The notes beneath the pieces were generated by a model, which worked only from the letters and a program-made list of their open reading frames with translations, was not told the DNA's origin and did not search any database. DNA of 64,000 nucleotides. It comes from an uncultured Chitinophagaceae bacterium. GTDB taxonomy: Bacteria; Bacteroidota; Bacteroidia; NS11-12g; UBA9320. Of this stretch, positions 12,128 through 38,638 are shown in pieces. The position numbers were made by a program, and so were the translations under genes. The number at the start of each line of letters is the position of its first letter. The first letter of the stretch is position 1. The stretch covers positions 26,148 to 90,147 of the forward strand of contig CAZYJD010000001.1 of assembly GCA_964647785.1 (NCBI GenBank), written 5' to 3'.

Positions 12128-12369
12128 GTGAATTTTAATATTAAACAGGCGGGGTGAACAAAACGTTCTTGTTGGCCCCTTATTTTCAAATTACACAACT
12201 TCAGGGCACGACCAACTGCATGATTTGTTCAATGGGTAAATATCCGTTCTGATATGCCCCCCAATAAACTCGTTAGAAAAATTAAGATGCTTTTTCAGTG
12301 TGCTGGTTTGCATATAGAAAAATCCTTCGCCCATTTTTCTATATTTGGCAGTATGAAAATTTAAACCCT

Positions 12370-13311
12370 ATGAAAAAAACTTTTACTTCCCTTTTAGTAT
12401 TAATCACCTTCACAGCCTTCGGGCAGAACAAAAAAGAACAAATTGCCATTTTGAGTGCAAGGGTTGACAGCTTATTTCAGGCCCTGAATACTGAAAAAAG
12501 CGAACGAGCAAGCACAGAAAAGGAGATGCAATCTCAAATATCACTGCTTCAAAGTCAATTGACCAATGAGCAGAATGAAAAGAAAACCGTGGAAGCAAAT
12601 CTTGCACTGCGCACCCAAGAACTAAGCAGCCAGAAAGAAGAAAATCAGAACATTACGGCTCTGCTCAATGAAACGGAAAAAGCGCGTTTAGCTCTAGAGG
12701 AAAAATACAACAACACCTCTGCGCAGTTATCGGAAACGGAAAAAGCGCGTTTAGCTCTGGAGGAAAAATACAACAACACCTCTGCGCAGCTTAAGGAAAC
12801 GGAAAATGAACGCATGGCGCTGGTAGAAAAGTACAACACCACTTCCGAAGAACTGATTGAACAAATCAATCAAAATGAAACGCTTGTGGCATTGCAGCAA
12901 AAGACCATGGAAGCCATGAAAGAAAAAGATCTTCTCATTGAAGAATTAACCGACCACAACTCTTCTCTCTCAGATCAGCTTGCATCGCTGAATGAACCTG
13001 AATACCAACCAGAAGATGCAATGATCTATGATAATGAAGAGGCCAACGATGGTGGATCCAATGCAGGAAATCCCAAGTGGGATAAGGTGCTGGATGATTA
13101 TGAGAACTACGTTGTTGAATACGCCAAGTTCTATAAAAAAGCCATGAGTGGCGATATGTCTGCCATGTCAAAATATCCGGCCCTCATGGAAAAAGCCACC
13201 AACTTATCCAAAAGTCTTGAAGGGGCCCAAAACAGCAATGATTTGAGCCAAAAGCAAATGAATCGCTTCATTCAAATTCAAGGCAAGTTCATGGAAGCTG
13301 TGGGCTATTAA
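12370..13311 (+). CDS. Secreted coiled-coil protein with 21-aa tandem repeats
   Basis: Signal peptide MKKTFTSLLVLITFTAFGQ. Heptad-like Q/E/L-rich sequence. ETEKARLALEEKYNNTSAQL repeated three times. Confidence 0.6.
   Translation: MKKTFTSLLVLITFTAFGQNKKEQIAILSARVDSLFQALNTEKSERASTEKEMQSQISLLQSQLTNEQNEKKTVEANLALRTQELSSQKEENQNITALLNETEKARLALEEKYNNTSAQLSETEKARLALEEKYNNTSAQLKETENERMALVEKYNTTSEELIEQINQNETLVALQQKTMEAMKEKDLLIEELTDHNSSLSDQLASLNEPEYQPEDAMIYDNEEANDGGSNAGNPKWDKVLDDYENYVVEYAKFYKKAMSGDMSAMSKYPALMEKATNLSKSLEGAQNSNDLSQKQMNRFIQIQGKFMEAVGY
12670..12858 (+). repeat. 3 tandem copies of a 63-bp in-frame repeat inside the coiled-coil gene
   Basis: Units begin at 12670, 12733 and 12796 (gaaacggaaaaagcgcgtttagctct(a/g)gaggaaaaatacaacaacacctctgcgcag...). 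The third copy is degenerate. Confidence 0.85.
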
Positions 13312-13341
13312 CGAGAAGCTTAAAAAGTCCTTTTAAACCAA

Positions 13342-13396
13342 GGGTGCAAGAATGTCCGCATCAGCAATTGATGGTCATTTTTGCACCCTTTTTTTA
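13342..13396 (+). terminator. Rho-independent terminator-like hairpin between convergent genes
   Basis: agggtgcaagaatgtcc...ggtcatttttgcaccct followed by a TTTTTTT run. The stem is long and imperfect with a large loop. Confidence 0.5.
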
Positions 13397-13549: not shown

Positions 13550-15460
13550 TCATTCATGCAGGTAAGTTATACCATCCGTAGGTCTCGAATAATTGATGTT
13601 GGGGTAGGAATAGGTTGGGAAACCATTGCTCGTGGTGAATTCACCCGACTGTAACCGAATTCTGCGATATCTCGATTTCAACTCAGCGCTCACCCGAACA
13701 TTTGCAGAGCTGAACCTTGAAATATACAAACCCTTGGTATCTAGCCACCAATATTCTGAACCAAAGGTAAAAAGCAATTTACCCTGCGAAATGCCAATGA
13801 AATTATACAAAGGTGGAGGATCCCAAGATGTGCTGCCGGCATCGACCATTCTGGATTTCTTTGTGAGTACATCATACACCTTCAGCTGACGATAATAACC
13901 CGAACTCGTGCCTTTGCTGATGTATACCTTATTCTCATAAATTATTTGATGATCATCAATAACCACCGGATTGTAACCCTGCTGCACAGGTACTGTTTTA
14001 GTGGTAGGAAAAAGGGTGTCTTTTGTATATTTCCATATCCTTGCACCGATTAATATGAACGAATCATTGATGATTTGGGGGACAATATTTAACCTTGATC
14101 CTTTGTCCGGGTTTTTCAAGCTGAACATTGCATCTCGGGCACGGCTGTAAAACGAAACATCACCGGCTTCATAAAAACATTTGCCTCCACCGCAACGCCA
14201 AAGATCTCCATCATTCAACCGGATCATATTTCCATAATGATCTATGACTTGGCCGAGGCTTGAGAAATTGCCCACTTTGAGGTCAGCCGAGTCCAAATGC
14301 CCCACATTCGAGTTCACGTAGAAATAAGGGTATCGCATTAAAATATTGTTGCTGTTCAATTTCTTGTTTGCATAAGCGGTATCCACCCGACCCGAGGGCT
14401 GCTTTTTAAGAATAAAGGTGTCAACTCGGTAATAGGCCGTATCTGCCTCTAACCACAACAAAGCACCCGATAAGTTATAATCCACTCCAAACCACATATC
14501 CGGAATTGTCCCGTTTTGTCCACTGCCACCCCCCGAGTTGGTAATAAAGGCTTTAACTGCCTCTAAAGGAACCTTGCCTCCTCCATTGCTCAATACAAGG
14601 GTGTCATTGATGAGCGCAATGCGCTGTATCTCATTGGTGCTATCGTTGTCCAGATTCTTCGGAAAATTCAGCTTTACCGCATTGCCATTCGATATCTCAA
14701 GACTGTCGCCTTTTACTGATAAGGTTTGCAATTCATTGCTGGGATCATTGTCCAGATTGGCAGGAAAATTCAGCTTCACGGTATTGCCATTTGATATGCC
14801 TAGACTATCTCCATTCACTGAAAGCGTTTGCAATTCATTGCCCGGATCATTGTCGAGATTGGCTGGAAAATTCAGCTTCACGGTATTTGCTCCGGAGATC
14901 GATAGGCTGTCGCCCTGTATGGCCAGCGATTGAATCTCATTGCCCACCACCGTATCGCGATCCCTGTTGCTTAAATAGGTGATTTTATCCGTCACGACGG
15001 CAATGGCACTGTCCGTTTGATTCGACATACTTTGCTCCGAGAAAAAGGCGTAAGGCACCGACCAAAACTTTTCCAATGAAGTGAGGGTGTAAGTGTTGTC
15101 ATTGTTAAAATCAATTTCCACTTGAAGGTGGGCTGTTCCCAATTCCCATGGGATGGCTTCAAAATCACCTGAAATGACCGTTCCCTGCCCTATGATGAGG
15201 TTAAAAACCCCGTATGCATCGGTGTTCGTTTCGTGGTATTCCTGATAGCTTTGTGTGCCATTGGGATATTGATCGAAAATGGTGAAACGCACCTTGATGG
15301 CTTTGTTGGACCAATAGACCGATTGGGGGTTTTCACCCGCCACGGAATAAGACCCATCCTTTACTGCCACCGCTTGGTAGGCAATTCCCTGCGGTGTATT
15401 CTGCGCTTGCACAGAAAAAGCAAGCGCGAAGCCAATGAGTAGAAGTTTTATTCTTTTCAT
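13550..15460 (-). CDS. Repeat-containing secreted/surface protein, paralog A (636 aa)
   Basis: Signal peptide MKRIKLLLIGFALAFSVQAQ. The N-terminal ~150 aa are identical to paralog B. 34-aa tandem repeats (NELQTLSVNGDSLGISNGNTVKLNFPANLDNDP). A unique ~330-aa C-terminal domain. Confidence 0.7.
   Translation of the reverse strand: MKRIKLLLIGFALAFSVQAQNTPQGIAYQAVAVKDGSYSVAGENPQSVYWSNKAIKVRFTIFDQYPNGTQSYQEYHETNTDAYGVFNLIIGQGTVISGDFEAIPWELGTAHLQVEIDFNNDNTYTLTSLEKFWSVPYAFFSEQSMSNQTDSAIAVVTDKITYLSNRDRDTVVGNEIQSLAIQGDSLSISGANTVKLNFPANLDNDPGNELQTLSVNGDSLGISNGNTVKLNFPANLDNDPSNELQTLSVKGDSLEISNGNAVKLNFPKNLDNDSTNEIQRIALINDTLVLSNGGGKVPLEAVKAFITNSGGGSGQNGTIPDMWFGVDYNLSGALLWLEADTAYYRVDTFILKKQPSGRVDTAYANKKLNSNNILMRYPYFYVNSNVGHLDSADLKVGNFSSLGQVIDHYGNMIRLNDGDLWRCGGGKCFYEAGDVSFYSRARDAMFSLKNPDKGSRLNIVPQIINDSFILIGARIWKYTKDTLFPTTKTVPVQQGYNPVVIDDHQIIYENKVYISKGTSSGYYRQLKVYDVLTKKSRMVDAGSTSWDPPPLYNFIGISQGKLLFTFGSEYWWLDTKGLYISRFSSANVRVSAELKSRYRRIRLQSGEFTTSNGFPTYSYPNINYSRPTDGITYLHE
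14560..14960 (-). repeat. In-frame 102-bp tandem repeat array (about 3 good copies plus degenerate flanking copies) in paralog A
   Basis: Unit starts at 14623, 14725 and 14827 on the + strand (tttgcaattcattgc...ggaaaattcagcttcacggtattgcc...). Period 102 bp = 34 aa. Confidence 0.85.
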
Positions 15461-15471
15461 TTGATGTAGAT
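14850..15471 (-). repeat. Segmental duplication copy 1 (about 620 bp; the last ~430 bp are 100% identical to 16423..16853)
   Basis: Direct comparison of the two stretches. Offset 1382 bp. Identity includes the start codon and the 11 bp upstream of it. Confidence 0.9.
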
Positions 15472-15504
15472 CATTTGAATATAAACGCCCTTAAGGCTGA
15501 TAAA

Positions 15505-16842
15505 TCAAAACTGAATGATTGCAAATCCTCTGGCATAGGGCGGTGCACAACAGTCAGGCACTTCATTCCCCACATAACCATTGGGTATGTAGGCGGGAAT
15601 CACCAATGCTTTGTAATCGTAGCCTATGACACTTCCATTTGTTCCGCGAGCTCCTGCCCTGGCGCAACCACCGGGACAATAGGCATTTCCTCCATTTCCT
15701 CCTCCCTCGGCATAATAATTTCCGAAATAGGTGTTGGTTGAATTGGTTTTTACATCCCCAATGGTTATCGCATAACTTTGTCCTGGAACAACAGTGATGG
15801 TATCTCTGAGGTAACCACCATTGCCACCAACCCCACCATTTGCTTCAGAATTCGTTGAATTGTTGCAATACCCATTGCAATATGCTCTGTTGCCATTTTT
15901 ACCTCCCCCTCCCCAGAGTTCAATGATGATGCGATTCACTCCTTGAGGACATTTCCAAAGCGTGTCTGAATCAAACCCTATAAACCGGCCGCTTGAAAGA
16001 AAAGTGGTGGTATCCTGATAATTTCTGATGTAATCGTTGATGTCTTGCAATGCAATGTTGCCCCCACCATGACTCAAGCGGATGGTGTCATTTGTTAGTA
16101 CAATCCGCTGTAACTCATTGGTACTATCGTTGTCCAAATTCTTTGGAAACAATAACTTCACAGTATTGCCATTCAATATCTCAAGACTGTCGCCTTTTAC
16201 CGATAATGTTTGCAGTTCATTGCCCGGATCATTGTCGAGATTGGCTGGAAAATTCAGCTTCACGGTGTTCGCTCCGGAGATCGATAGGCTGTCGCCCTGT
16301 ATGGACAGCGATTGAATCTCATTGCCCACTACTGTATCGCGATCCCTGTTGCTTAAATAGGTGATTTTGTCCGTCACCACTGCAATGGCACTGTCCGTTT
16401 GATCCGTTACGCTTTGCTCTGAGAAAAAGGCGTAAGGCACCGACCAAAACTTTTCCAATGAAGTGAGGGTGTAAGTGTTGTCATTGTTAAAATCAATTTC
16501 CACTTGAAGGTGGGCTGTTCCCAATTCCCATGGGATGGCTTCAAAATCACCTGAAATGACCGTTCCCTGCCCTATGATGAGGTTAAAAACCCCGTATGCA
16601 TCGGTGTTCGTTTCGTGGTATTCCTGATAGCTTTGTGTGCCATTGGGATATTGATCGAAAATGGTGAAACGCACCTTGATGGCTTTGTTGGACCAATAGA
16701 CCGATTGGGGGTTTTCACCCGCCACGGAATAAGACCCATCCTTTACTGCCACCGCTTGGTAGGCAATTCCCTGCGGTGTATTCTGCGCTTGCACAGAAAA
16801 AGCAAGCGCGAAGCCAATGAGTAGAAGTTTTATTCTTTTCAT
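15505..16842 (-). CDS. Repeat-containing secreted/surface protein, paralog B (445 aa) with a glycine-rich Cys-containing C-terminal domain
   Basis: Same signal peptide and N-terminal 150 aa as paralog A. Three 34-aa repeats. C-terminus WGGGGKNGNRAYCNGYCNN...GGVGGNGGY...EGGGNGGNAYCPGGCARAGARG...CCAPPY. Start ATG overlaps the stop of the upstream gene (ATGA). Confidence 0.7.
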   Translation of the reverse strand: MKRIKLLLIGFALAFSVQAQNTPQGIAYQAVAVKDGSYSVAGENPQSVYWSNKAIKVRFTIFDQYPNGTQSYQEYHETNTDAYGVFNLIIGQGTVISGDFEAIPWELGTAHLQVEIDFNNDNTYTLTSLEKFWSVPYAFFSEQSVTDQTDSAIAVVTDKITYLSNRDRDTVVGNEIQSLSIQGDSLSISGANTVKLNFPANLDNDPGNELQTLSVKGDSLEILNGNTVKLLFPKNLDNDSTNELQRIVLTNDTIRLSHGGGNIALQDINDYIRNYQDTTTFLSSGRFIGFDSDTLWKCPQGVNRIIIELWGGGGKNGNRAYCNGYCNNSTNSEANGGVGGNGGYLRDTITVVPGQSYAITIGDVKTNSTNTYFGNYYAEGGGNGGNAYCPGGCARAGARGTNGSVIGYDYKALVIPAYIPNGYVGNEVPDCCAPPYARGFAIIQF

Positions 16843-16853
16843 TTGATGTAGAT
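16232..16853 (-). repeat. Segmental duplication copy 2 (pairs with 14850..15471)
   Basis: See copy 1. Includes the last 11 bp of the upstream small CTD gene (atctacatcaaatga). The same relic is found upstream of paralog A. Confidence 0.9.
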
Positions 16854-17297
16854 GAGTTTTTTACTGTAAACGCGATGATCGGCAAGGGTGAGATGAATGG
16901 TGTACAAACCCGATGAAAAATTCTTCATGGATATGCGTTTAGCCCAACCCTGGTAACAGGTTTTACCAAACACATCCACCACCACCACATCGGTATAGGT
17001 TTCATTTGTTTCGATGTTCACCCAATCGGAAGTTGGATTGGGGTAAATGCTCAACTGTATGTCTTCGAGCATGGATTGAGGTCGCAAATGAAGAAAGGGT
17101 TTTGTTTGTATGCTCCGTCCGTCACTGAATTTATTTGCATTCACAACAGGAGAAGAAACCGGGTTAAAGGCCACCACGGCTGTTTTGCCCGAAACTGAAG
17201 AACCAAAGGAGCCAATGGCAGATCGTGCAATTTTCTGTGCGTCGGCCTCACTGCAAAGCAAAGTGAAGACCATTAGAAAGAATGCTGTGCTTCTCAT
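16839..17297 (-). CDS. Small T9SS C-terminal-sorting-domain protein (152 aa)
   Basis: Signal peptide MRSTAFFLMVFTLLCSEADAQ. C-terminal IYPNPTSDWVNIETN...SGLYTIHLTLADHRVYSKKLIYIK matches the type-A T9SS CTD pattern. 4-nt overlaps with both neighbouring genes. Confidence 0.7.
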   Translation of the reverse strand: MRSTAFFLMVFTLLCSEADAQKIARSAIGSFGSSVSGKTAVVAFNPVSSPVVNANKFSDGRSIQTKPFLHLRPQSMLEDIQLSIYPNPTSDWVNIETNETYTDVVVVDVFGKTCYQGWAKRISMKNFSSGLYTIHLTLADHRVYSKKLIYIK

Positions 17298-17917
17298 TGG
17301 TGAATTTCTATTCTAAGACCCAATGAAAGCTGATTGATTCTCAATTCATCTGCATCTAAATCAGCATTTGACAGCATATAGGCGTATGAAACATAAGGAT
17401 GGATGGCCAAATGATCTGCAGCATAGCCTGCAAAATTGATTTCGCCACCTAGGAAAAAGTTGGTTTTGGTGAACAACTCTTCTGTTTTGCTAACCGCCCC
17501 ATTCACCATTTGCGAGGATGCCGTTAGAAAGCTGTAAGAAGGCACTATGGCAAACGACTGAATGAAGAATTCCCGGGGTGTTTCCTTGCCCTGTGAAAGC
17601 GGCAATGCATAGCGTATGGGAAGGTCGAGTTTTAATGAAGAGTGGGTGAATGAAGTGCTCAATTCGCTGTTTACTGCGCTGGCTTGCACCGTAGAGGCAC
17701 TGAGCAATGTGGAGACCGACAATTTCTTGAGATCACCAAAAAACAACCCAATGCGGGTGTCTGCATGGTAGTGGCAATCATAGTTCAGTTCACCATTTGT
17801 TCCGCTGAACTGCACCTGAGGCTGGCTCAGGCCCTGATAAAATTGCAGGCCTATTTTTTGGGCAAAAGTGCCCAAAGATCCTAAAAGCAGTAGACCCACC
17901 ATTATACTTTTCTTCAT
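17294..17917 (-). CDS. Small outer-membrane beta-barrel protein (porin/OmpA-like family)
   Basis: 207 aa with a signal peptide, alternating hydrophobic beta-strand pattern, aromatic-rich strands and a C-terminal EIHQ. First gene of the operon. Confidence 0.6.
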   Translation of the reverse strand: MKKSIMVGLLLLGSLGTFAQKIGLQFYQGLSQPQVQFSGTNGELNYDCHYHADTRIGLFFGDLKKLSVSTLLSASTVQASAVNSELSTSFTHSSLKLDLPIRYALPLSQGKETPREFFIQSFAIVPSYSFLTASSQMVNGAVSKTEELFTKTNFFLGGEINFAGYAADHLAIHPYVSYAYMLSNADLDADELRINQLSLGLRIEIHQ

Positions 17918-18039
17918 CTGACAAAAATATTGAAAACCGCCAGATTGCCAATGAATGGCGCTTTGGGTGGGCTAATGCTCTTATAAAGTAGCACATGCAG
18001 ATGAGAAAATGACGAGGACCTAAGATGTACAATTGAAAT

Positions 18040-18066
18040 AAACCAAAAGCGCCCCTTCAAAGGGGC
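18040..18066 (-). terminator. Hairpin terminator downstream of the 18094..18522 gene
   Basis: gcgccccttcaaaggggc with a T-run on the minus strand after the stem (cttttggtttatttc). The hairpin is also followed by T's on the + strand. Confidence 0.55.
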
Positions 18067-18093
18067 ATTTTTGATTTTAAGTTAGGTAAATGT

Positions 18094-18522
18094 TCAGATG
18101 GAAGTCCTTAATTTTCCATTCCGAGCGACATAGAATAAACCAATGATAGGAAGTAAACTAACAATCATCAACGGAATTGGAGGATGCGCAGAAGAACCCA
18201 TCATTAAACTAATGAAATCTGGAAGCGTCCAAGCTAGATGCAAAATCCCTAACAAAAATGTTGCTGCTTTTAAAGAACTTAATTCTTTCAACGTCAGGGC
18301 ATATATGGTTGCAGCCAAATAACCTGCCATGATGAATGCAAATACAAAGAGCATGGTATCTAGAATGGCTATTGCACCAGCATTTTTAGCAAGACCTTCG
18401 ACACCCATATCTGCTATCATCATTTCTTTCATTTCACCGCCGCTCATCGCAAGGAATAAAGGAATAGACTGCAACAGATCTAAGATTAATGTTAGGACTA
18501 AAATGTTTTTAAAGTTTTTCAT
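18094..18522 (-). CDS. Small integral membrane protein (about 4 TM), paralog 1
   Basis: 142 aa, mostly hydrophobic helices. Shares a PPIPLMIVSLLPI-type motif with the next gene. Confidence 0.55.
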   Translation of the reverse strand: MKNFKNILVLTLILDLLQSIPLFLAMSGGEMKEMMIADMGVEGLAKNAGAIAILDTMLFVFAFIMAGYLAATIYALTLKELSSLKAATFLLGILHLAWTLPDFISLMMGSSAHPPIPLMIVSLLPIIGLFYVARNGKLRTSI

Positions 18523-18559: not shown

Positions 18560-18955
18560 TCAAACTCTGTTAGACTCTTTTCTCATAGAAATCACGCTAA
18601 GCGCTATAAAAAAACCAAAGAGGACAAGAGCAGGAATTGGTGGTTGTAGTCCTGGCCATTGAACCATCGCATTAAATGCTTGTAATAATACGACCCCACT
18701 CATGGCAATAATTCCTTTAAAAAGATTTATAGCAAAATCTCCTGAGCTATTTCGCAATAAAAGTACCATAATGCCCACACCGAGGGCAACAGAGGCCAAT
18801 GCTTGATGCATAGCTGTTCCAACATCCAATGCCTGTTTCGATAATTCAATACCAGCAAATGCTTGAGATGTAATTTGTTCTGCACCAAGGAAAAATCCAA
18901 TTCCTTGCAGTGCCAATAATCCACCAATGATGGACAAGGATAAATTTGATTTCAT
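18560..18955 (-). CDS. Small integral membrane protein (about 4 TM), paralog 2
   Basis: 131 aa, hydrophobic. PPIPALVLFGFF motif parallels the neighbour. Confidence 0.55.
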   Translation of the reverse strand: MKSNLSLSIIGGLLALQGIGFFLGAEQITSQAFAGIELSKQALDVGTAMHQALASVALGVGIMVLLLRNSSGDFAINLFKGIIAMSGVVLLQAFNAMVQWPGLQPPIPALVLFGFFIALSVISMRKESNRV

Positions 18956-35950: not shown

Positions 35951-38578
35951 CTAATGGGCTATATTTAATCTCTGGGTATACAACTGATGCTGATGATGTA
36001 TGTGAATGATATACGTTCCGGTATTCAGCTGACTTATATCCAAATTACCAGGCAGTATCTTTTGCAAGGTTAACACCCTGCGCGCCAACAGGTCGTAAAT
36101 CTGAATTTCAGCTTCACCACTGAGACCAACGATTTGAATAACTGAGCTGGCAGGATTGGGATAAACATTGATGGGTTCCTGTTGGCGGGTTTCAAGACTG
36201 TTCGTGCGCACACTTTCAAAAAACCAGCTATCACTCCATGGACCTACAAGATCAGGGCGCCGTGCCCGCACCCGCCAATAATAACGAGTACCTTGATTCA
36301 AGTTGGTAAATGCCACTGCCGTGCTTGTGGGATTACCTGTTGCCACCAAATTGGTGAAATTGCTATTGGTAGAAACCTGTATGTCGTATGACTGAGCTGT
36401 GTTAACACCAAACCAGACCAGATTTACCCCTGCAAGAGGGATGTTGCTTGCTCCATTAAAAGGTCGAGACAATTGAGGTTTAGAAAGTTGGGGGGCGGCC
36501 ACCGTGCTAAAACGATGGATAAGAGACCAGGATGATGTATCCCGGGTGTGAAATGCTCTTGCTCTCCAGTAATAAGTTGAACCATGATCGAGATTGACCA
36601 CTTTTTCTGAAGGGTCTCCCTTGCTGAGGGTTTGAATGCCAGCTGTACTCAGGTTGGAATCTTTTGCTATTTGATACTCATAGGTGTAATCATCATCTGA
36701 ACCCTGTATGCCCCAGTCAAGTTTGGGGTTGATAACCACATTTTGTGCATCATTCGCCGGGGAGCTAAGCCAGGGTCGCTGTGTGGTGGTGAAACTCCTG
36801 CTGATGGACCATTGGCTGCTATCCCTGTCTGTAACACAACGCGTTCTCCAGTAATATCTCGTCTCGAAATTCAACTCTCCGGGCAATTCTACCTGAATAT
36901 ATTGCGGTTGAAAATCATCTGGTTCATGTAGGGCAGAACCGAATTGCTTTAGAGGAGAATTAAACGCCATGCTTGTATCCAACTCCCAATGAACGCTATC
37001 ACTCCCATCTACTCCCACAATCAAGGCATTTGTCTGCGTGCCAATGCCTATGAAATTATCAGGTGGGAAATGAGGTAGAGGTCCGGATTTGGTTCTAAAG
37101 GTAACGGGGATGGTGGATTCAGAAGTGTCGGAATATCTGATTGCAAACACCCGGTACACATAATCCTGATCATACTTGAGGTCAACAAAGGTGCTATTCC
37201 ATATGCCGGAAACGTTTTCGAACGTATCAACCACAATGGCTTCATCAGAAAGGGCGATATTAAACTGCTTTCCAGTATCTATTTGTAACAAATATGCCGT
37301 GGCCCACGAAGCCTGAATGAATCTGATGTTCACGCGGATATTATGATCTGCGGTATTGTTTCTCGGAGATGGCGGATCTATTCTCAATTGCCCGGTAAAT
37401 GTGCGAAACTGAAACTCTGACCATTTTGAAGTATCAGTATCGTGCATGCCGCGTACTCGCCAGAAATAGGGTCTGTTCAAATACAGTGTGTCCGGTAAAG
37501 TCATTCTATCTTCAGCAAGTGTGCTGTCTTTGAGAATCACAGCAAAATCCGCGTTTTCTGAGAGCTGAAACTGATACCTCATTCCGGATCGGTTGTCCCA
37601 TCTAAACTGAACCACCAGTGACTGGAGGCTGCCATTGTTTTGAGGGAACACAAATGTGAAATCTTCGCTCACAAAAAATGAATCCACCACAGACCAATCA
37701 GATTTCTGATTACCAAATACGCCCCTTATACGCCAGTAGTACCATTCACCAAAATACAGGTTTCTTAAAGTGTCTCTCCTGGAGTATCTGTCGAGTATTT
37801 TGCTTTTGCTTTCCGTTGATGAGAAATCTCTTTGGGTATCCAATTGCAATTCAACTTCCGCCAACCCCATATCAGGCCATTGAACAACTGATTGCGGGTC
37901 TGATGACTTGCCCACCTTGAAGATCTCAGGCACCGTTTTGATGGTATATTTCCAAATGGGCGACCAATCCAGGGTGTCTCCAAACTTATTCACCGCTGTT
38001 GCACGCCAGTAAATGGTTTTACCATAGGTAAAATAATTGCTGTCTATCAAAGCACGGTCGTTAGATGTCCGTCGAACAAAGGATGAACTGTTCATCGTAT
38101 TGACAGTATCCATCTCGAAAATATAAGTGACCGGTTCATCTGAGGTAAGTGAAATAACCCTGAGAGATGTAAGAGGCCCTTCAACATTATTCTGCGGAAA
38201 GTTCAATTCACAGCTTTCAAGCACAGTAAAATTGAACGCACTGGACCAACCAGATGTATCGGTACTATTGAAACAACGTGTCCGCCAAAAATAGGTCTGT
38301 CCCTTCCTCAATGTGCCTGACGTGGCACTGCGTGAAGAACTGTTGCCTGAAGAGAAGACGGATGTTACCATAGGGCTGTTAAAAGCCGAACTGGTGTCAT
38401 ATTGATATTCGTAGCCCGTCGCACCGCTAACGCTGGTAGCGAGAAATGTAACATCAAAACGCTTGAGTGTGATGTTTGATATGGGTACGGAGGGACTCGG
38501 GCGACTCAAATTTGCCCGGGAAGAAAAAACCGCTCCAAACAAAACCAAAAGGAGCGCGAAAAAGCGAGTGGCCATCAT
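35951..38578 (-). CDS. Large T9SS-secreted protein with multiple fibronectin-III-like repeats
   Basis: Signal peptide MMATRFFALLLVLF. At least 8 repeats ending in the (Y/F)(Y/F)WR(A/T/V)R motif. C-terminal VYPNPASSVIQIVGLSGEAEIQIYD...GTYIIHIHH T9SS CTD. Confidence 0.75.
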   Translation of the reverse strand: MMATRFFALLLVLFGAVFSSRANLSRPSPSVPISNITLKRFDVTFLATSVSGATGYEYQYDTSSAFNSPMVTSVFSSGNSSSRSATSGTLRKGQTYFWRTRCFNSTDTSGWSSAFNFTVLESCELNFPQNNVEGPLTSLRVISLTSDEPVTYIFEMDTVNTMNSSSFVRRTSNDRALIDSNYFTYGKTIYWRATAVNKFGDTLDWSPIWKYTIKTVPEIFKVGKSSDPQSVVQWPDMGLAEVELQLDTQRDFSSTESKSKILDRYSRRDTLRNLYFGEWYYWRIRGVFGNQKSDWSVVDSFFVSEDFTFVFPQNNGSLQSLVVQFRWDNRSGMRYQFQLSENADFAVILKDSTLAEDRMTLPDTLYLNRPYFWRVRGMHDTDTSKWSEFQFRTFTGQLRIDPPSPRNNTADHNIRVNIRFIQASWATAYLLQIDTGKQFNIALSDEAIVVDTFENVSGIWNSTFVDLKYDQDYVYRVFAIRYSDTSESTIPVTFRTKSGPLPHFPPDNFIGIGTQTNALIVGVDGSDSVHWELDTSMAFNSPLKQFGSALHEPDDFQPQYIQVELPGELNFETRYYWRTRCVTDRDSSQWSISRSFTTTQRPWLSSPANDAQNVVINPKLDWGIQGSDDDYTYEYQIAKDSNLSTAGIQTLSKGDPSEKVVNLDHGSTYYWRARAFHTRDTSSWSLIHRFSTVAAPQLSKPQLSRPFNGASNIPLAGVNLVWFGVNTAQSYDIQVSTNSNFTNLVATGNPTSTAVAFTNLNQGTRYYWRVRARRPDLVGPWSDSWFFESVRTNSLETRQQEPINVYPNPASSVIQIVGLSGEAEIQIYDLLARRVLTLQKILPGNLDISQLNTGTYIIHIHHQHQLYTQRLNIAH

Positions 38579-38638
38579 TATTCGAAGGTATTTGATTTTA
38601 TGAGAACAAACCCTGATCAATGCCAGAACAGGGTAAAA

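What the first reader, a model, noticed from the sequence alone, without database searches (positions are those of the whole stretch)
13550..17917. Four-gene minus-strand surface operon: OM beta-barrel, small T9SS-CTD protein, and two tandem paralogous repeat proteins
The genes are tightly coupled: both the 17294/17297 and the 16839/16842 junctions are ATGA-type overlaps. The order is a 207-aa beta-barrel OMP, a 152-aa protein whose only recognisable feature is a T9SS sorting CTD, and then two large signal-peptide proteins. The two large proteins share an identical N-terminal domain but have unrelated C-terminal modules and no CTD of their own. I do not recognise this architecture as a described system. 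One candidate reading is an outer-membrane platform/anchor with exchangeable surface 'heads', such as an adhesin, S-layer-like or receptor-binding module. The terminator upstream at about 18040-18066 suggests the operon has its own promoter.
Basis: partly seen in the sequence, partly recalled or inferred. Interest (0 to 1): 0.7.

Follow-up and report, generated by a model that had tools for sequence, protein, structure and literature searches.

The report
Mosaic surface-fibre cassette with T9SS adaptor
A marine Bacteroidota genome carries a tightly packed four-gene cassette: a small outer-membrane barrel, a tiny protein carrying a type IX secretion tag, and two fibre proteins with the same base and different tips. 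It probably builds cell-surface fibres with swappable tips, and it points to a previously undescribed way of exporting and anchoring them.

Summary
Four minus-strand ORFs (207, 152, 445 and 636 aa) lie at 13550-17917, with two ATGA overlaps, a terminator hairpin upstream and another downstream.

- **152-aa protein:** a type A T9SS CTD preceded by a roughly 55-residue region that is itself conserved.
- **Two large proteins:** signal peptide, a 121-aa beta-rich N-domain identical between them, 34-residue stalk repeats, then unrelated tips. One tip is a phage-like glycine-rich domain and the other is beta-propeller-like. Neither has a CTD.

The N-domain is a remote homologue of the Bdellovibrio "mosaic adhesive trimer" (MAT) N-domain (NF053851; 14 of 14 mature domains hit, all checked are below the curated cut-off).

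The order OMP, then CTD protein, then one or two fibres recurs in every related marine metagenome locus that is long enough, in unrelated flanks. 119 homologues carry 19 tip types. Distant members of the small CTD family (22-27% identity) also sit directly upstream of N-domain fibre genes, including in cultured Aureispira, Chondrinema and Fulvitalea.

Best reading: MAT-like mosaic surface fibres, with the small CTD protein acting as a trans T9SS export and anchoring adaptor and the barrel as a membrane dock. The fibre identity is well supported. The adaptor mechanism is inferred.

The parts
17918..18067 (-). Upstream boundary. A bidirectional terminator hairpin at 18050-18067 ends the preceding gene. 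It is followed by a 132-nt promoter region holding a sigma-70-like site (17951-17924) and TATTTTTG just before the ATG.
   Evidence: Scan. Sequence. The TAnnTTTG reading as a Bacteroidota -7 element comes from my own knowledge and was not tested.
17294..17917 (-). 207-aa 8-stranded outer-membrane beta-barrel. The signal peptide is residues 1-19, with cleavage TFA|QK. The strands are long (17-20 residues), and the loop at about residues 105-118 is variable.
   Evidence: - AF2 model: pLDDT 81.8.
- No Pfam or NCBIfam family at E<=1.
- 26 homologues, all from marine metagenomes.
16839..17297 (-). 152-aa small T9SS cargo, proposed as the adaptor.
- Signal peptide: residues 1-20 (ADA|QK).
- Conserved N-region: residues 21-~80 (QKIARSAIGSFGSS...IQTKPFLHLR), nt 17058-17237.
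- Type A CTD: residues 84-149, within nt 16842-17057.
   Evidence: - PF18962 6.6e-10 and TIGR04183 5.5e-6, both above cut-off.
- Family alignment A4.
- An HMM built from the N-region alone finds the Aureispira, Chondrinema and Fulvitalea proteins.
15505..16842 (-). Fibre 1, 445 aa.
- Signal peptide: residues 1-19.
- N-domain: residues 20-140 (nt 16423-16785).
- Stalk: residues 141-272, with 3 x 34-aa NE[IL]Q repeats (nt 16021-16326).
- Tip: residues 273-445 (nt 15508-16026), glycine-rich (18.5% Gly).
   Evidence: - General.
- The tip is 67% identical to the P0027 tip, which matches Pfam PF21722 Gly_rich_2.
- PHROG tail-fibre families 863 and 6202.
- NF053851 at E 2.6e-5.
15461..15504 (-). 44-nt spacer between the two fibre genes. 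It holds a relic copy of the 3' end of the CTD gene together with its ATGA junction (TTCAAATGATCTACATCAAATG).
   Evidence: The 11 nt upstream of both fibre ATGs are identical.
13550..15460 (-). Fibre 2, 636 aa.
- Signal peptide: residues 1-19.
- N-domain: residues 20-140 (nt 15041-15403), DNA-identical to that of fibre 1.
- Stalk: residues 141-310, with 4 x 34-aa repeats (nt 14537-14944).
- Tip: residues 311-636 (nt 13553-14530), beta-propeller-like.
   Evidence: - AF2 model: N-domain pLDDT 74-96, stalk mostly below 50, tip 75-95.
- 23 homologues share this tip.
13334..13396 (.). Downstream boundary. An inverted repeat (24-nt arms, 15-nt loop) with T-runs on both sides, shared with the convergent gene 12298-13311.
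   Evidence: I1. Sequence.

Best explanation
The cassette builds cell-surface fibres of the MAT type, in which a conserved cell-proximal N-domain carries exchangeable distal tips.

**Shown**
- Both fibre proteins have a Sec signal peptide.
- Both have an N-domain remotely homologous to the Bdellovibrio MAT N-domain.
- Both have a repetitive stalk.
- Their tips are unrelated: one is a phage-type glycine-rich domain, the other is beta-propeller-like.
- Across relatives the base is constant while the tips are shuffled.

**Shown, linkage**
- Upstream, and translationally coupled, lie an 8-stranded outer-membrane barrel and a 152-aa protein. After signal-peptide removal that protein is a roughly 60-residue conserved region followed by a type A T9SS CTD.
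- This small-protein family sits next to N-domain fibre genes across Bacteroidota.

**Inferred, mechanism**
1. The fibres are exported to the periplasm by Sec and trimerise there.
2. Their N-domains bind the N-region of the small protein.
3. The small protein's CTD takes the complex through the T9SS.
4. The CTD is then removed and the new C-terminus of the small protein is fixed to the surface. In Porphyromonas this step is done by the PorU sortase, which links cargo to anionic LPS.
5. The barrel serves as an additional or alternative dock in this clade.

**Why the tag would be on a separate protein.** T9SS anchors its cargo by the C-terminus. These fibres must present their C-terminus outwards, so an in-cis CTD would orient them the wrong way.

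**The two tips** would give two binding specificities from one operon.
For: **Fibre identity**
- NF053851 Bdello_MAT_N is the only family hit consistently: 22 of 50 full-length relatives (best E 1.3e-7) and 14 of 14 mature N-domains without signal peptide (best E 1.2e-11).
- The stalk has low monomer confidence while both end domains are confident.
- Relatives carry collagen triple-helix stalks, which are obligate trimers, or Peptidase_S74.
- There are 19 tip clusters among 119 homologues.
- The fibre 1 tip matches phage tail-fibre families.

**Linkage**
- OMP, CTD protein and fibre abut on one strand in all loci long enough: 4 fibre-seeded loci and 27 OMP-seeded loci. The one exception, L031, looks like a decayed cassette or a misassembly.
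- Flanking genes differ between loci.
- 3 of 3 distant small-CTD family members that I sampled are followed by an N-domain fibre gene, with hmmsearch E-values of 6.5e-36, 6.7e-13 and 4.2e-44.
- 3 of 6 plasmid-borne N-domain genes in cultured Aureispira, Chondrinema and Fulvitalea are directly preceded by a family member.
- L042 repeats the trio with an OMP_b-brl_2 barrel.
- No fibre carries a CTD: 0 of 50.
- ATGA coupling is present.

**Cellular rather than viral base**
- There was no match to the N-domain in 50,697 phage records (queried with a distant Bacteroidota homologue, the L039 N-domain) or to the clade's N-domain alignment in IMG/VR.
Against:
- As far as I know, piggy-back transport of a CTD-less partner through the T9SS has not been demonstrated. 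Two targeted literature searches found nothing.
- Many N-domain fibres have no adjacent small CTD gene (L037-L039, L045-L047). Any adaptor must therefore also act in trans, or those fibres use another route.
- The barrel is absent from most distant pairs, and the L042 barrel is not detectably homologous to this one (hhalign probability 0.6%). Its role may be clade-specific.
- The MAT similarity is below the curated cut-off (24 against 60 bits for the window proteins).
- Bdellovibrio is not known to have a T9SS (my own knowledge).
- Trimerisation and surface exposure are both inferred.
Confidence: 0.5

Rival explanations
1. The fibres are surface adhesins as above, but the small CTD protein is not their carrier or anchor. 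It could be an independently secreted accessory, such as a periplasmic or extracellular assembly factor, a cap, or a regulator of fibre length. In this reading the fibres cross the outer membrane by another, unknown route and are held by the 8-stranded barrel alone.
For: - Many N-domain fibres in other Bacteroidota have no adjacent small CTD gene.
- Bdellovibrio MATs reach the surface (PMC10769870), and that organism is not known to have a T9SS (my own knowledge).
- The barrel has unusually long strands, as in NspA and OmpX-type proteins that project above the membrane.
Against: - An 8-stranded barrel has no pore that a fibre could pass through.
- The barrel is missing from most distant CTD-fibre pairs, whereas the small CTD protein is the constant partner.
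- ATGA coupling links the CTD gene directly to the first fibre gene.
Confidence: 0.22
2. The cluster is phage-derived. It would be a remnant of a prophage or tailocin receptor-binding module, with fibres that belong to a particle rather than to the cell surface.
For: - The fibre 1 tip matches PHROG tail-fibre families and relatives match Pfam Gly_rich_2.
- Relatives carry Peptidase_S74, Phage Tail Collar or collagen modules, and some are annotated as tail fibre proteins.
Against: - No phage structural, lysis or integration genes flank the cassette in any locus.
- All four proteins have Sec signal peptides with Gln at +1.
- There was no match to the N-domain in 50,697 phage genomes (queried with a distant Bacteroidota homologue, the L039 N-domain) or to the clade's N-domain alignment in IMG/VR.
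- The partners are an outer-membrane barrel and a T9SS cargo.
Confidence: 0.04
3. The fibres are not adhesins but delivery or contact weapons, or prey- and host-capture devices, analogous to the role of MATs in Bdellovibrio predation. In this reading the tips recognise other cells.
For: - Homology to the MAT N-domain.
- The same gene pair occurs on a plasmid of Aureispira, a genus known for contact predation (the predation is my own knowledge).
- Tip diversity resembles receptor-binding arms races.
Against: - No toxin, enzyme or immunity gene lies in or next to the cassette.
- The carriers are free-living marine Bacteroidia MAGs with no known predatory habit.
- Both tips look like binding modules only.
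Confidence: 0.12
4. The tandem duplicate with a perfectly identical 431-nt start is an assembly artefact, and the genome has only one fibre gene.
For: A 99.5-99.9% identical metagenome scaffold (L001) has a run of N exactly where fibre 1 lies.
Against: - The exact 445-aa and 636-aa proteins are each on record from several independent samples.
- Tandem pairs with 77-100% identical N-regions occur in three other distinct loci, L002 (also recovered from a second sample as L003), L012 and L013; the L002 contig is 1.4 Mb.
- Divergence between the copies begins at codon 141, with mostly synonymous changes.
Confidence: 0.03

Closest known systems
Bdellovibrio bacteriovorus MAT (mosaic adhesive trimer) chimeric fibre proteins (Caulton et al. 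2024, PMC10769870; NCBIfam NF053851)
   Same: - Signal peptide followed directly by a conserved beta-rich N-domain of about 120-130 aa, with remote sequence homology.
- A long repetitive stalk.
- Diversified, swappable C-terminal tips, including phage-like ones and, in relatives, S74 ones.
- Several paralogues with one shared base.
   Different: - Different phylum.
- Similarity is far below the curated cut-off (24 against 60 bits for the window proteins).
- The fibres are much shorter (445 and 636 aa, against the roughly 850-1,150 aa implied by the construct numbering in that paper).
- Here they are genetically tied to an outer-membrane barrel and a T9SS-tagged small protein. For MATs the surface partner of the N-domain is explicitly unknown.
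T9SS type A cargo and its surface attachment (PorU/PorV/PorZ/PorQ attachment complex, A-LPS linkage)
   Same: The 152-aa protein has a Sec signal peptide and a type A CTD above the Pfam and TIGRFAM cut-offs. It should therefore be exported and processed like other type A cargo.
   Different: - Its passenger is only about 60 residues with no recognisable functional domain.
- The proteins that look like the real payload, the fibres, have no CTD. This implies use of the signal in trans, which is not an established T9SS mode.
Type B CTD cargo with adjacent PorP/SprF-like barrels (SprB-SprF, PG1035-PorP; PMC9143113)
   Same: A T9SS cargo gene sits next to a dedicated outer-membrane barrel gene that is proposed to hold the cargo on the surface.
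   Different: - PorP and SprF are 14-stranded FadL-type barrels, and their cargo has a type B CTD.
- Here the barrel has 8 strands and no PorP_SprF match, and the CTD is type A.
Trimeric autotransporter adhesins (type Vc)
   Same: The logic of head, stalk and membrane anchor, with modular, exchangeable heads on a repetitive trimeric stalk.
   Different: - In those adhesins the anchor is a C-terminal barrel domain in the same polypeptide and the head is N-terminal.
- Here the polarity is reversed and the barrel is a separate protein.
- There is no sequence similarity.
Phage tail fibres and receptor-binding proteins (Gly_rich_2 PF21722, PHROG 863/6202, Peptidase_S74, Tail Collar)
   Same: Tip modules are shared with phage fibres. 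Evolution is mosaic, by tip exchange.
   Different: No match to the base (N-domain) was found in the phage or IMG/VR searches. The proteins have Sec signal peptides and cellular partners.

Membership tests
MAT chimeric fibre family (NF053851 / PMC10769870) | A conserved beta-rich N-domain of about 130 aa immediately after the signal peptide | tested here: met
   - Residues 20-140 are beta-rich, with pLDDT 74-96.
- NF053851 is hit by 14 of 14 mature N-domains (best E 1.2e-11; window protein 2.6e-5).
- It is also hit by 22 of 50 full-length relatives.
MAT chimeric fibre family (NF053851 / PMC10769870) | Score at or above the curated NCBIfam cut-off of 60 bits | tested here: not met
   24.1 and 22.9 bits for the two window proteins. 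They are remote homologues, not members by the curated rule.
MAT chimeric fibre family (NF053851 / PMC10769870) | Diversified C-terminal tips on a constant base, with S74 and non-S74 subtypes | tested here: met
   - 19 tip clusters among 119 homologues.
- A Peptidase_S74 relative in L037.
- Collagen, Tail Collar and Gly_rich_2 tips.
MAT chimeric fibre family (NF053851 / PMC10769870) | Trimeric fibre displayed on the cell surface | not testable with these tools
   The evidence is indirect only. The stalk has low monomer confidence, and relatives have collagen triple-helix stalks.
T9SS type A cargo | Sec signal peptide plus a C-terminal type A CTD (PF18962 / TIGR04183) | tested here: met
   For the 152-aa protein: 39.6 bits against a cut-off of 27, and 26.3 against 23, at residues 84-149.
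T9SS type A cargo | The same feature, tested in the two fibre proteins | tested here: not met
   No CTD family at E<=1 in either fibre. None in 50 relatives at E<=0.01.
PorP/SprF barrel with type B CTD cargo | A 14-stranded FadL-type barrel (PF11751) next to a type B CTD protein (TIGR04131) | tested here: not met
   The barrel has 8 strands. There is no PorP_SprF or type B CTD match.
Small 8-stranded outer-membrane barrels (OmpA-N, OmpX, OmpW, NspA class) | Eight antiparallel transmembrane strands preceded by a signal peptide | tested here: met
Small 8-stranded outer-membrane barrels (OmpA-N, OmpX, OmpW, NspA class) | Membership of a curated sequence family (Pfam OMP_b-brl, OMP_b-brl_2, OmpW and similar) | tested here: not met
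   0 Pfam or NCBIfam hits at E<=1. hhalign against the OMP_b-brl_2 protein of L042 gives probability 0.6%.
Phage tail fibre or prophage module | Presence in phage genomes, or flanking phage structural genes | tested here: not met
   - N-domain: no match among 50,697 phages (query: the L039 N-domain) or IMG/VR (query: the clade alignment A6).
- No phage genes flank the cassette.
- Only the fibre 1 tip is phage-like.

The most novel reading that the evidence does not exclude
The small CTD protein is a trans-acting T9SS adaptor. Its roughly 60-residue N-region clamps the conserved N-domain of CTD-less trimeric fibres, carries them through the translocon, and after CTD removal becomes their covalent surface anchor.

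This would be the first case of piggy-back secretion through the T9SS. It would also identify the cell-surface partner of the MAT-type N-domain, at least in Bacteroidota.
Probability: 0.3. Interest if true: 0.8.

Novelty: new variant of a known kind. Interest (0 to 1): 0.62.

Why it matters
- **A tractable lead on an open question.** Mosaic fibres with a constant base and swappable tips were described only recently, in Bdellovibrio. How their base is held on the cell was left open. Here the homologous base is genetically welded to two candidate partners, which makes the question directly testable in Bacteroidota that can be cultured (Aureispira anguillae, Chondrinema litorale, Fulvitalea axinellae).
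- **A possible extension of T9SS function.** If the small protein proves to be a carrier, the T9SS would be known to export complexes using a tag supplied in trans.
- **Annotation.** Thousands of Bacteroidota proteins now called "hypothetical", "collagen-like" or "tail fiber" would be explained as one family of surface fibres. Their variable tips probably govern attachment to particles, algae, hosts or other cells in the ocean.
- **Metagenome assembly.** The identical N-domain repeats break short-read assemblies at these loci.

Tried and rejected
- **Direct family searches.** Pfam, NCBIfam and PHROG gave nothing for the barrel or for the fibre 2 tip.
- **PDB sequence searches.** Searches with both fibres and with an N-domain profile found nothing meaningful.
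- **Fold searches.**
  - The afdb50 library was unavailable. A structural comparison of the N-domain with AlphaFold models of Bdellovibrio MATs could therefore not be made.
- **Collection scans.**
  - I spent the single genome-contig scan on one barrel sequence, and it returned only a 95% identical MAG contig. An alignment query would have been a better use.
  - Seeding plasmids from the small CTD protein returned only itself.
  - A7 was too divergent for a pattern scan.
- **Readings considered and rejected.**
  - A PorP/SprF-type partnership: wrong barrel size and wrong CTD type.
  - A lipoprotein reading of the small protein: the Cys in LLCS is not conserved in orthologues.
  - A prophage origin.
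  - An assembly artefact for the duplication.
  - An S-layer.
- **Other negatives.** No riboswitch or other Rfam element lies in the cluster. Literature searches for a described equivalent found none.


Full report
**1. What is in the sequence**

Four ORFs lie head to tail on the minus strand: 17294-17917 (207 aa), 16839-17297 (152 aa), 15505-16842 (445 aa) and 13550-15460 (636 aa).

- Both upstream junctions are true ATGA overlaps.
- The last two genes are 44 nt apart, with no terminator-like site between them.
- A G+C-rich hairpin with T-runs on both strands at 18050-18067 separates the cluster from the preceding gene.
- A 24-nt-arm inverted repeat at 13334-13396 closes it against a convergent gene.
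- All four products begin with a signal peptide whose predicted cleavage leaves Gln at +1 (TFA|QK, ADA|QK, VQA|QN). That Gln is invariant or nearly so in the family alignments. From my own knowledge this is the usual pattern for exported Bacteroidota proteins.

**2. The individual proteins**

*The 207-aa protein.*
- It matches no Pfam or NCBIfam family.
- With 22 homologues as input, AlphaFold2 gives a confident model (pLDDT 81.8, pTM 0.75) with eight long antiparallel strands.

*The 152-aa protein.*
- It has a type A T9SS sorting domain above both curated cut-offs, at residues 84-149.
- An exhaustive HMMER search showed that residues 21 to about 80 are also conserved. They define a family of proteins about 150-170 aa long with the signature AQxIxRxxIxSxGxS ... 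GE/GQ ... QGFxQP.

*The 445- and 636-aa proteins.*
- They are identical over residues 1-144 and share 34-residue NE[IL]Q...LDNDx stalk repeats, three and four copies respectively. After that they are unrelated.
- At DNA level the first 140 codons plus 11 nt upstream are identical. Divergence begins abruptly at codon 141, with 9 synonymous and 4 non-synonymous codon differences up to codon 207.
- The 11 upstream nucleotides are a copy of the 3' end of the CTD gene. The second gene's head was therefore copied from, or converted by, the first.
- In the AlphaFold2 model of the 636-aa protein, the N-domain (24-133) and the C-terminal domain (about 330-590) are confident. The stalk is not, which is what one expects for an obligate oligomer modelled as a monomer.
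- The 445-aa tip is 18.5% glycine. It is 67% identical to the tip of P0027, which matches Pfam Gly_rich_2. It also hits two PHROG tail-fibre families directly.
- Neither fibre, nor any of 50 relatives, has a CTD.

**3. The fibres belong to a known kind**

- The only family that the N-domain hits is NCBIfam NF053851, [quoted passage not shown]. The window proteins score E 2.6e-5 and 24 bits, against a cut-off of 60.
- The hit is reproducible. It occurs in 22 of 50 full-length relatives (best E 1.3e-7). It occurs in 14 of 14 mature N-domains with the signal peptide removed and drawn from across Bacteroidota (best E 1.2e-11).
[quoted passage not shown] It describes a trimeric fibre and diversified tips with or without an S74 chaperone-protease. 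[quoted passage not shown]
- The same plan is seen here.
  - 119 homologues sharing the N-domain carry 19 unrelated tip clusters.
  - Orthologous tips are about 35% identical where N-domains are 62-72% identical.
  - A profile search finds 3,380 N-domain proteins across Bacteroidota, many followed by collagen repeats. One is followed by Peptidase_S74 and others by a Phage Tail Collar.
- Collagen stalks imply trimers.
- No match to the N-domain was found in 50,697 phage genomes (queried with a distant homologue) or to the clade alignment in IMG/VR. The base is therefore cellular, even though some tips are phage-like.

**4. The accessory genes are the new part**

*Close relatives.*
- Starting from the fibre, four loci show the same order: barrel of about 200 aa, CTD protein of about 152 aa, then fibre or fibres. 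One is a near-identical scaffold and three are diverged. The diverged loci lie in entirely different flanks.
- Starting from the barrel, a metagenome scan returned 27 loci. In every one long enough, the CTD gene abuts the barrel gene and a fibre N-domain abuts the CTD gene, on one strand.
- The single exception, L031, looks like a decayed cassette or a misassembly. Its barrel ORF lacks the 3' end and is followed by an ORF matching the last ~130 residues of a fibre 2-type tip.
- Tandem fibre pairs recur in L002 (again in L003, the same sequence from a second sample), L012 and L013, with N-region DNA identity of 77-100%.

*Distant relatives, seeded from the small CTD protein.*
- I sampled three family members with 22-27% identity to the window protein (alignment A4). 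All three are directly followed by an N-domain fibre gene (L040, L041) or by a barrel and then a fibre (L042).
- The L042 barrel matches Pfam OMP_b-brl_2. It shows no detectable homology to the window barrel.

*Distant relatives, seeded from the N-domain.*
- Three of six N-domain genes on plasmids of cultured Bacteroidota are directly preceded by a small "T9SS type A sorting domain-containing protein". The hosts are Aureispira anguillae, Chondrinema litorale and Fulvitalea axinellae. An HMM built only from the N-region recognises all three proteins.
- The other three plasmid genes, and three chromosomal fibre genes, have no such neighbour.

The small CTD protein is thus a recurrent, probably dedicated, partner of the fibre base. 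The barrel is a partner in this marine clade and in at least one other lineage. Not every fibre gene has its own copy of either.

**5. How it most likely works**

*Shown.* Sec signal peptides on all four proteins, a T9SS signal on the small protein only, a conserved base with variable tips, and tight genetic coupling.

*Inferred.*
- The fibres trimerise after Sec export. Their N-domains bind the roughly 60-residue N-region of the small protein. Its CTD takes the complex through the T9SS.
- After CTD removal the small protein becomes the surface tether. In Porphyromonas type A cargo is linked to anionic LPS by PorU (PMC9143113).
- The barrel offers a membrane dock.
- The appeal of this model is topological. 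The T9SS fixes cargo by the C-terminus, but these fibres must present their C-terminus outwards, and in S74 relatives they cleave it off. An in-cis CTD would therefore be incompatible with their function, and a separate adaptor for the N-terminal base solves the problem.

*Weaknesses.*
- No interaction has been tested.
- I found no precedent for piggy-back T9SS transport.
- Fibres without an adjacent adaptor exist.
- Bdellovibrio is not known to have a T9SS (my own knowledge).

I put about 0.75 on "MAT-like mosaic surface fibres" and about 0.3-0.4 on the adaptor mechanism. The combined explanation is rated 0.5.

**6. Rivals**

- **Independent accessory.** The small protein is secreted on its own and the barrel is the sole anchor. 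This is plausible, but the barrel is the less constant partner and cannot itself export a fibre.
- **Prophage or tailocin remnant.** This is contradicted by the flanks, the signal peptides and the absence of the base from phages.
- **Prey- or host-capture device.** This is not excluded. It rests on the analogy with Bdellovibrio and on the Aureispira case.
- **Assembly artefact for the duplication.** Both exact proteins are recovered from several independent samples. Tandem pairs occur on other contigs, one of 1.4 Mb. The 99.5-99.9% identical scaffold L001 does carry an N-gap at this spot, which shows that short-read assemblers stumble here.

**7. Novelty and verdict**

The fibres are a new, phylum-wide branch of a recently described kind. 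The conserved pairing with a small T9SS-tagged protein, and here also with an 8-stranded barrel, is to my knowledge undescribed, and the held literature supports that. I classify the finding as a new variant of a known kind.

Interest is moderate to high. It offers a concrete candidate for the unknown anchor of MAT-type fibres and a testable case of trans-acting T9SS targeting, but every mechanistic step still needs experiment.

The source organism is an uncultured marine Bacteroidota. The nearest named contig is a "Sphingobacteriia bacterium" MAG, and relatives are labelled Bacteroidia MAGs.

Noticed in passing
window 12298-13311 (+): A 337-aa signal-peptide protein with tandem coiled-coil-like repeats (ETEKARLALEEKYNNTSAQL; the DNA repeat lies around 12670-12842). 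It is convergent with the cassette and shares its terminator hairpin.
   Followed up: no
window 35951-38620 (-): An 889-aa protein made of about eight repeats of roughly 90 aa, each ending in a YYWRxR-like motif, with its own T9SS CTD. It is the only other CTD detected in the window by tblastn.
   Followed up: no
L001 5890-5989 (equivalent to window 15472-16798): A 99.5-99.9% identical ENA metagenome scaffold has a run of N exactly where the 445-aa fibre gene lies. The 431-nt identical N-domain repeat breaks short-read assembly, so tandem fibre genes are probably under-counted in MAGs.
   Followed up: partly
window 15461-15504: The spacer between the two fibre genes contains TTCAAATGATCTACATCAAATG. 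This is a relic copy, possibly two, of the CTD-gene stop / fibre start ATGA junction. It marks the duplication or gene-conversion breakpoint 11 nt upstream of the ATG.
   Followed up: partly
L031 1-923: An apparently decayed cassette (or a misassembly). The barrel ORF lacks its 3' end and is followed by an ORF matching the last ~130 residues of a fibre 2-type tip. The CTD gene and most of the fibre are missing.
   Followed up: partly
L045 3917-4810, L046 3426-4364, L047 3399-4313: On plasmids of Flammeovirga, Chondrinema and Fulvitalea, an N-domain protein of about 300 aa (annotated tail fiber protein, phage tail protein or hypothetical protein; a Phage Tail Collar domain was confirmed in the Flammeovirga one) is each time followed by a giant protein of more than 2,700 aa with a LamG-like jellyroll fold. 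This is a second, different conserved partnership for the same base.
   Followed up: partly
L037 6001-8190: In a Sphingobacteriales genome, three consecutive ORFs carry an N-domain with collagen-like Gly-X-Y repeats, a 163-aa repeat segment, and a Peptidase_S74 segment. This is probably one S74-type fibre split by frameshifts or by gene calling, and it mirrors the S74 subfamily of Bdellovibrio MATs.
   Followed up: no
L042 6001-9574: The same trio in a different order: small CTD protein, then a 207-aa OMP_b-brl_2 barrel ending in ...LAFAF, then an 808-aa N-domain fibre with collagen repeats. This barrel has no detectable homology to the window barrel, which suggests independent recruitment or very fast divergence.
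   Followed up: partly
window 18094-18522 and 18560-18955 (-): Two adjacent small polytopic membrane proteins (142 and 131 aa) with no family assignment lie just upstream of the cassette. They are also present in L001. They are separated from the cassette by the terminator hairpin, so they are probably unrelated to it.
   Followed up: no
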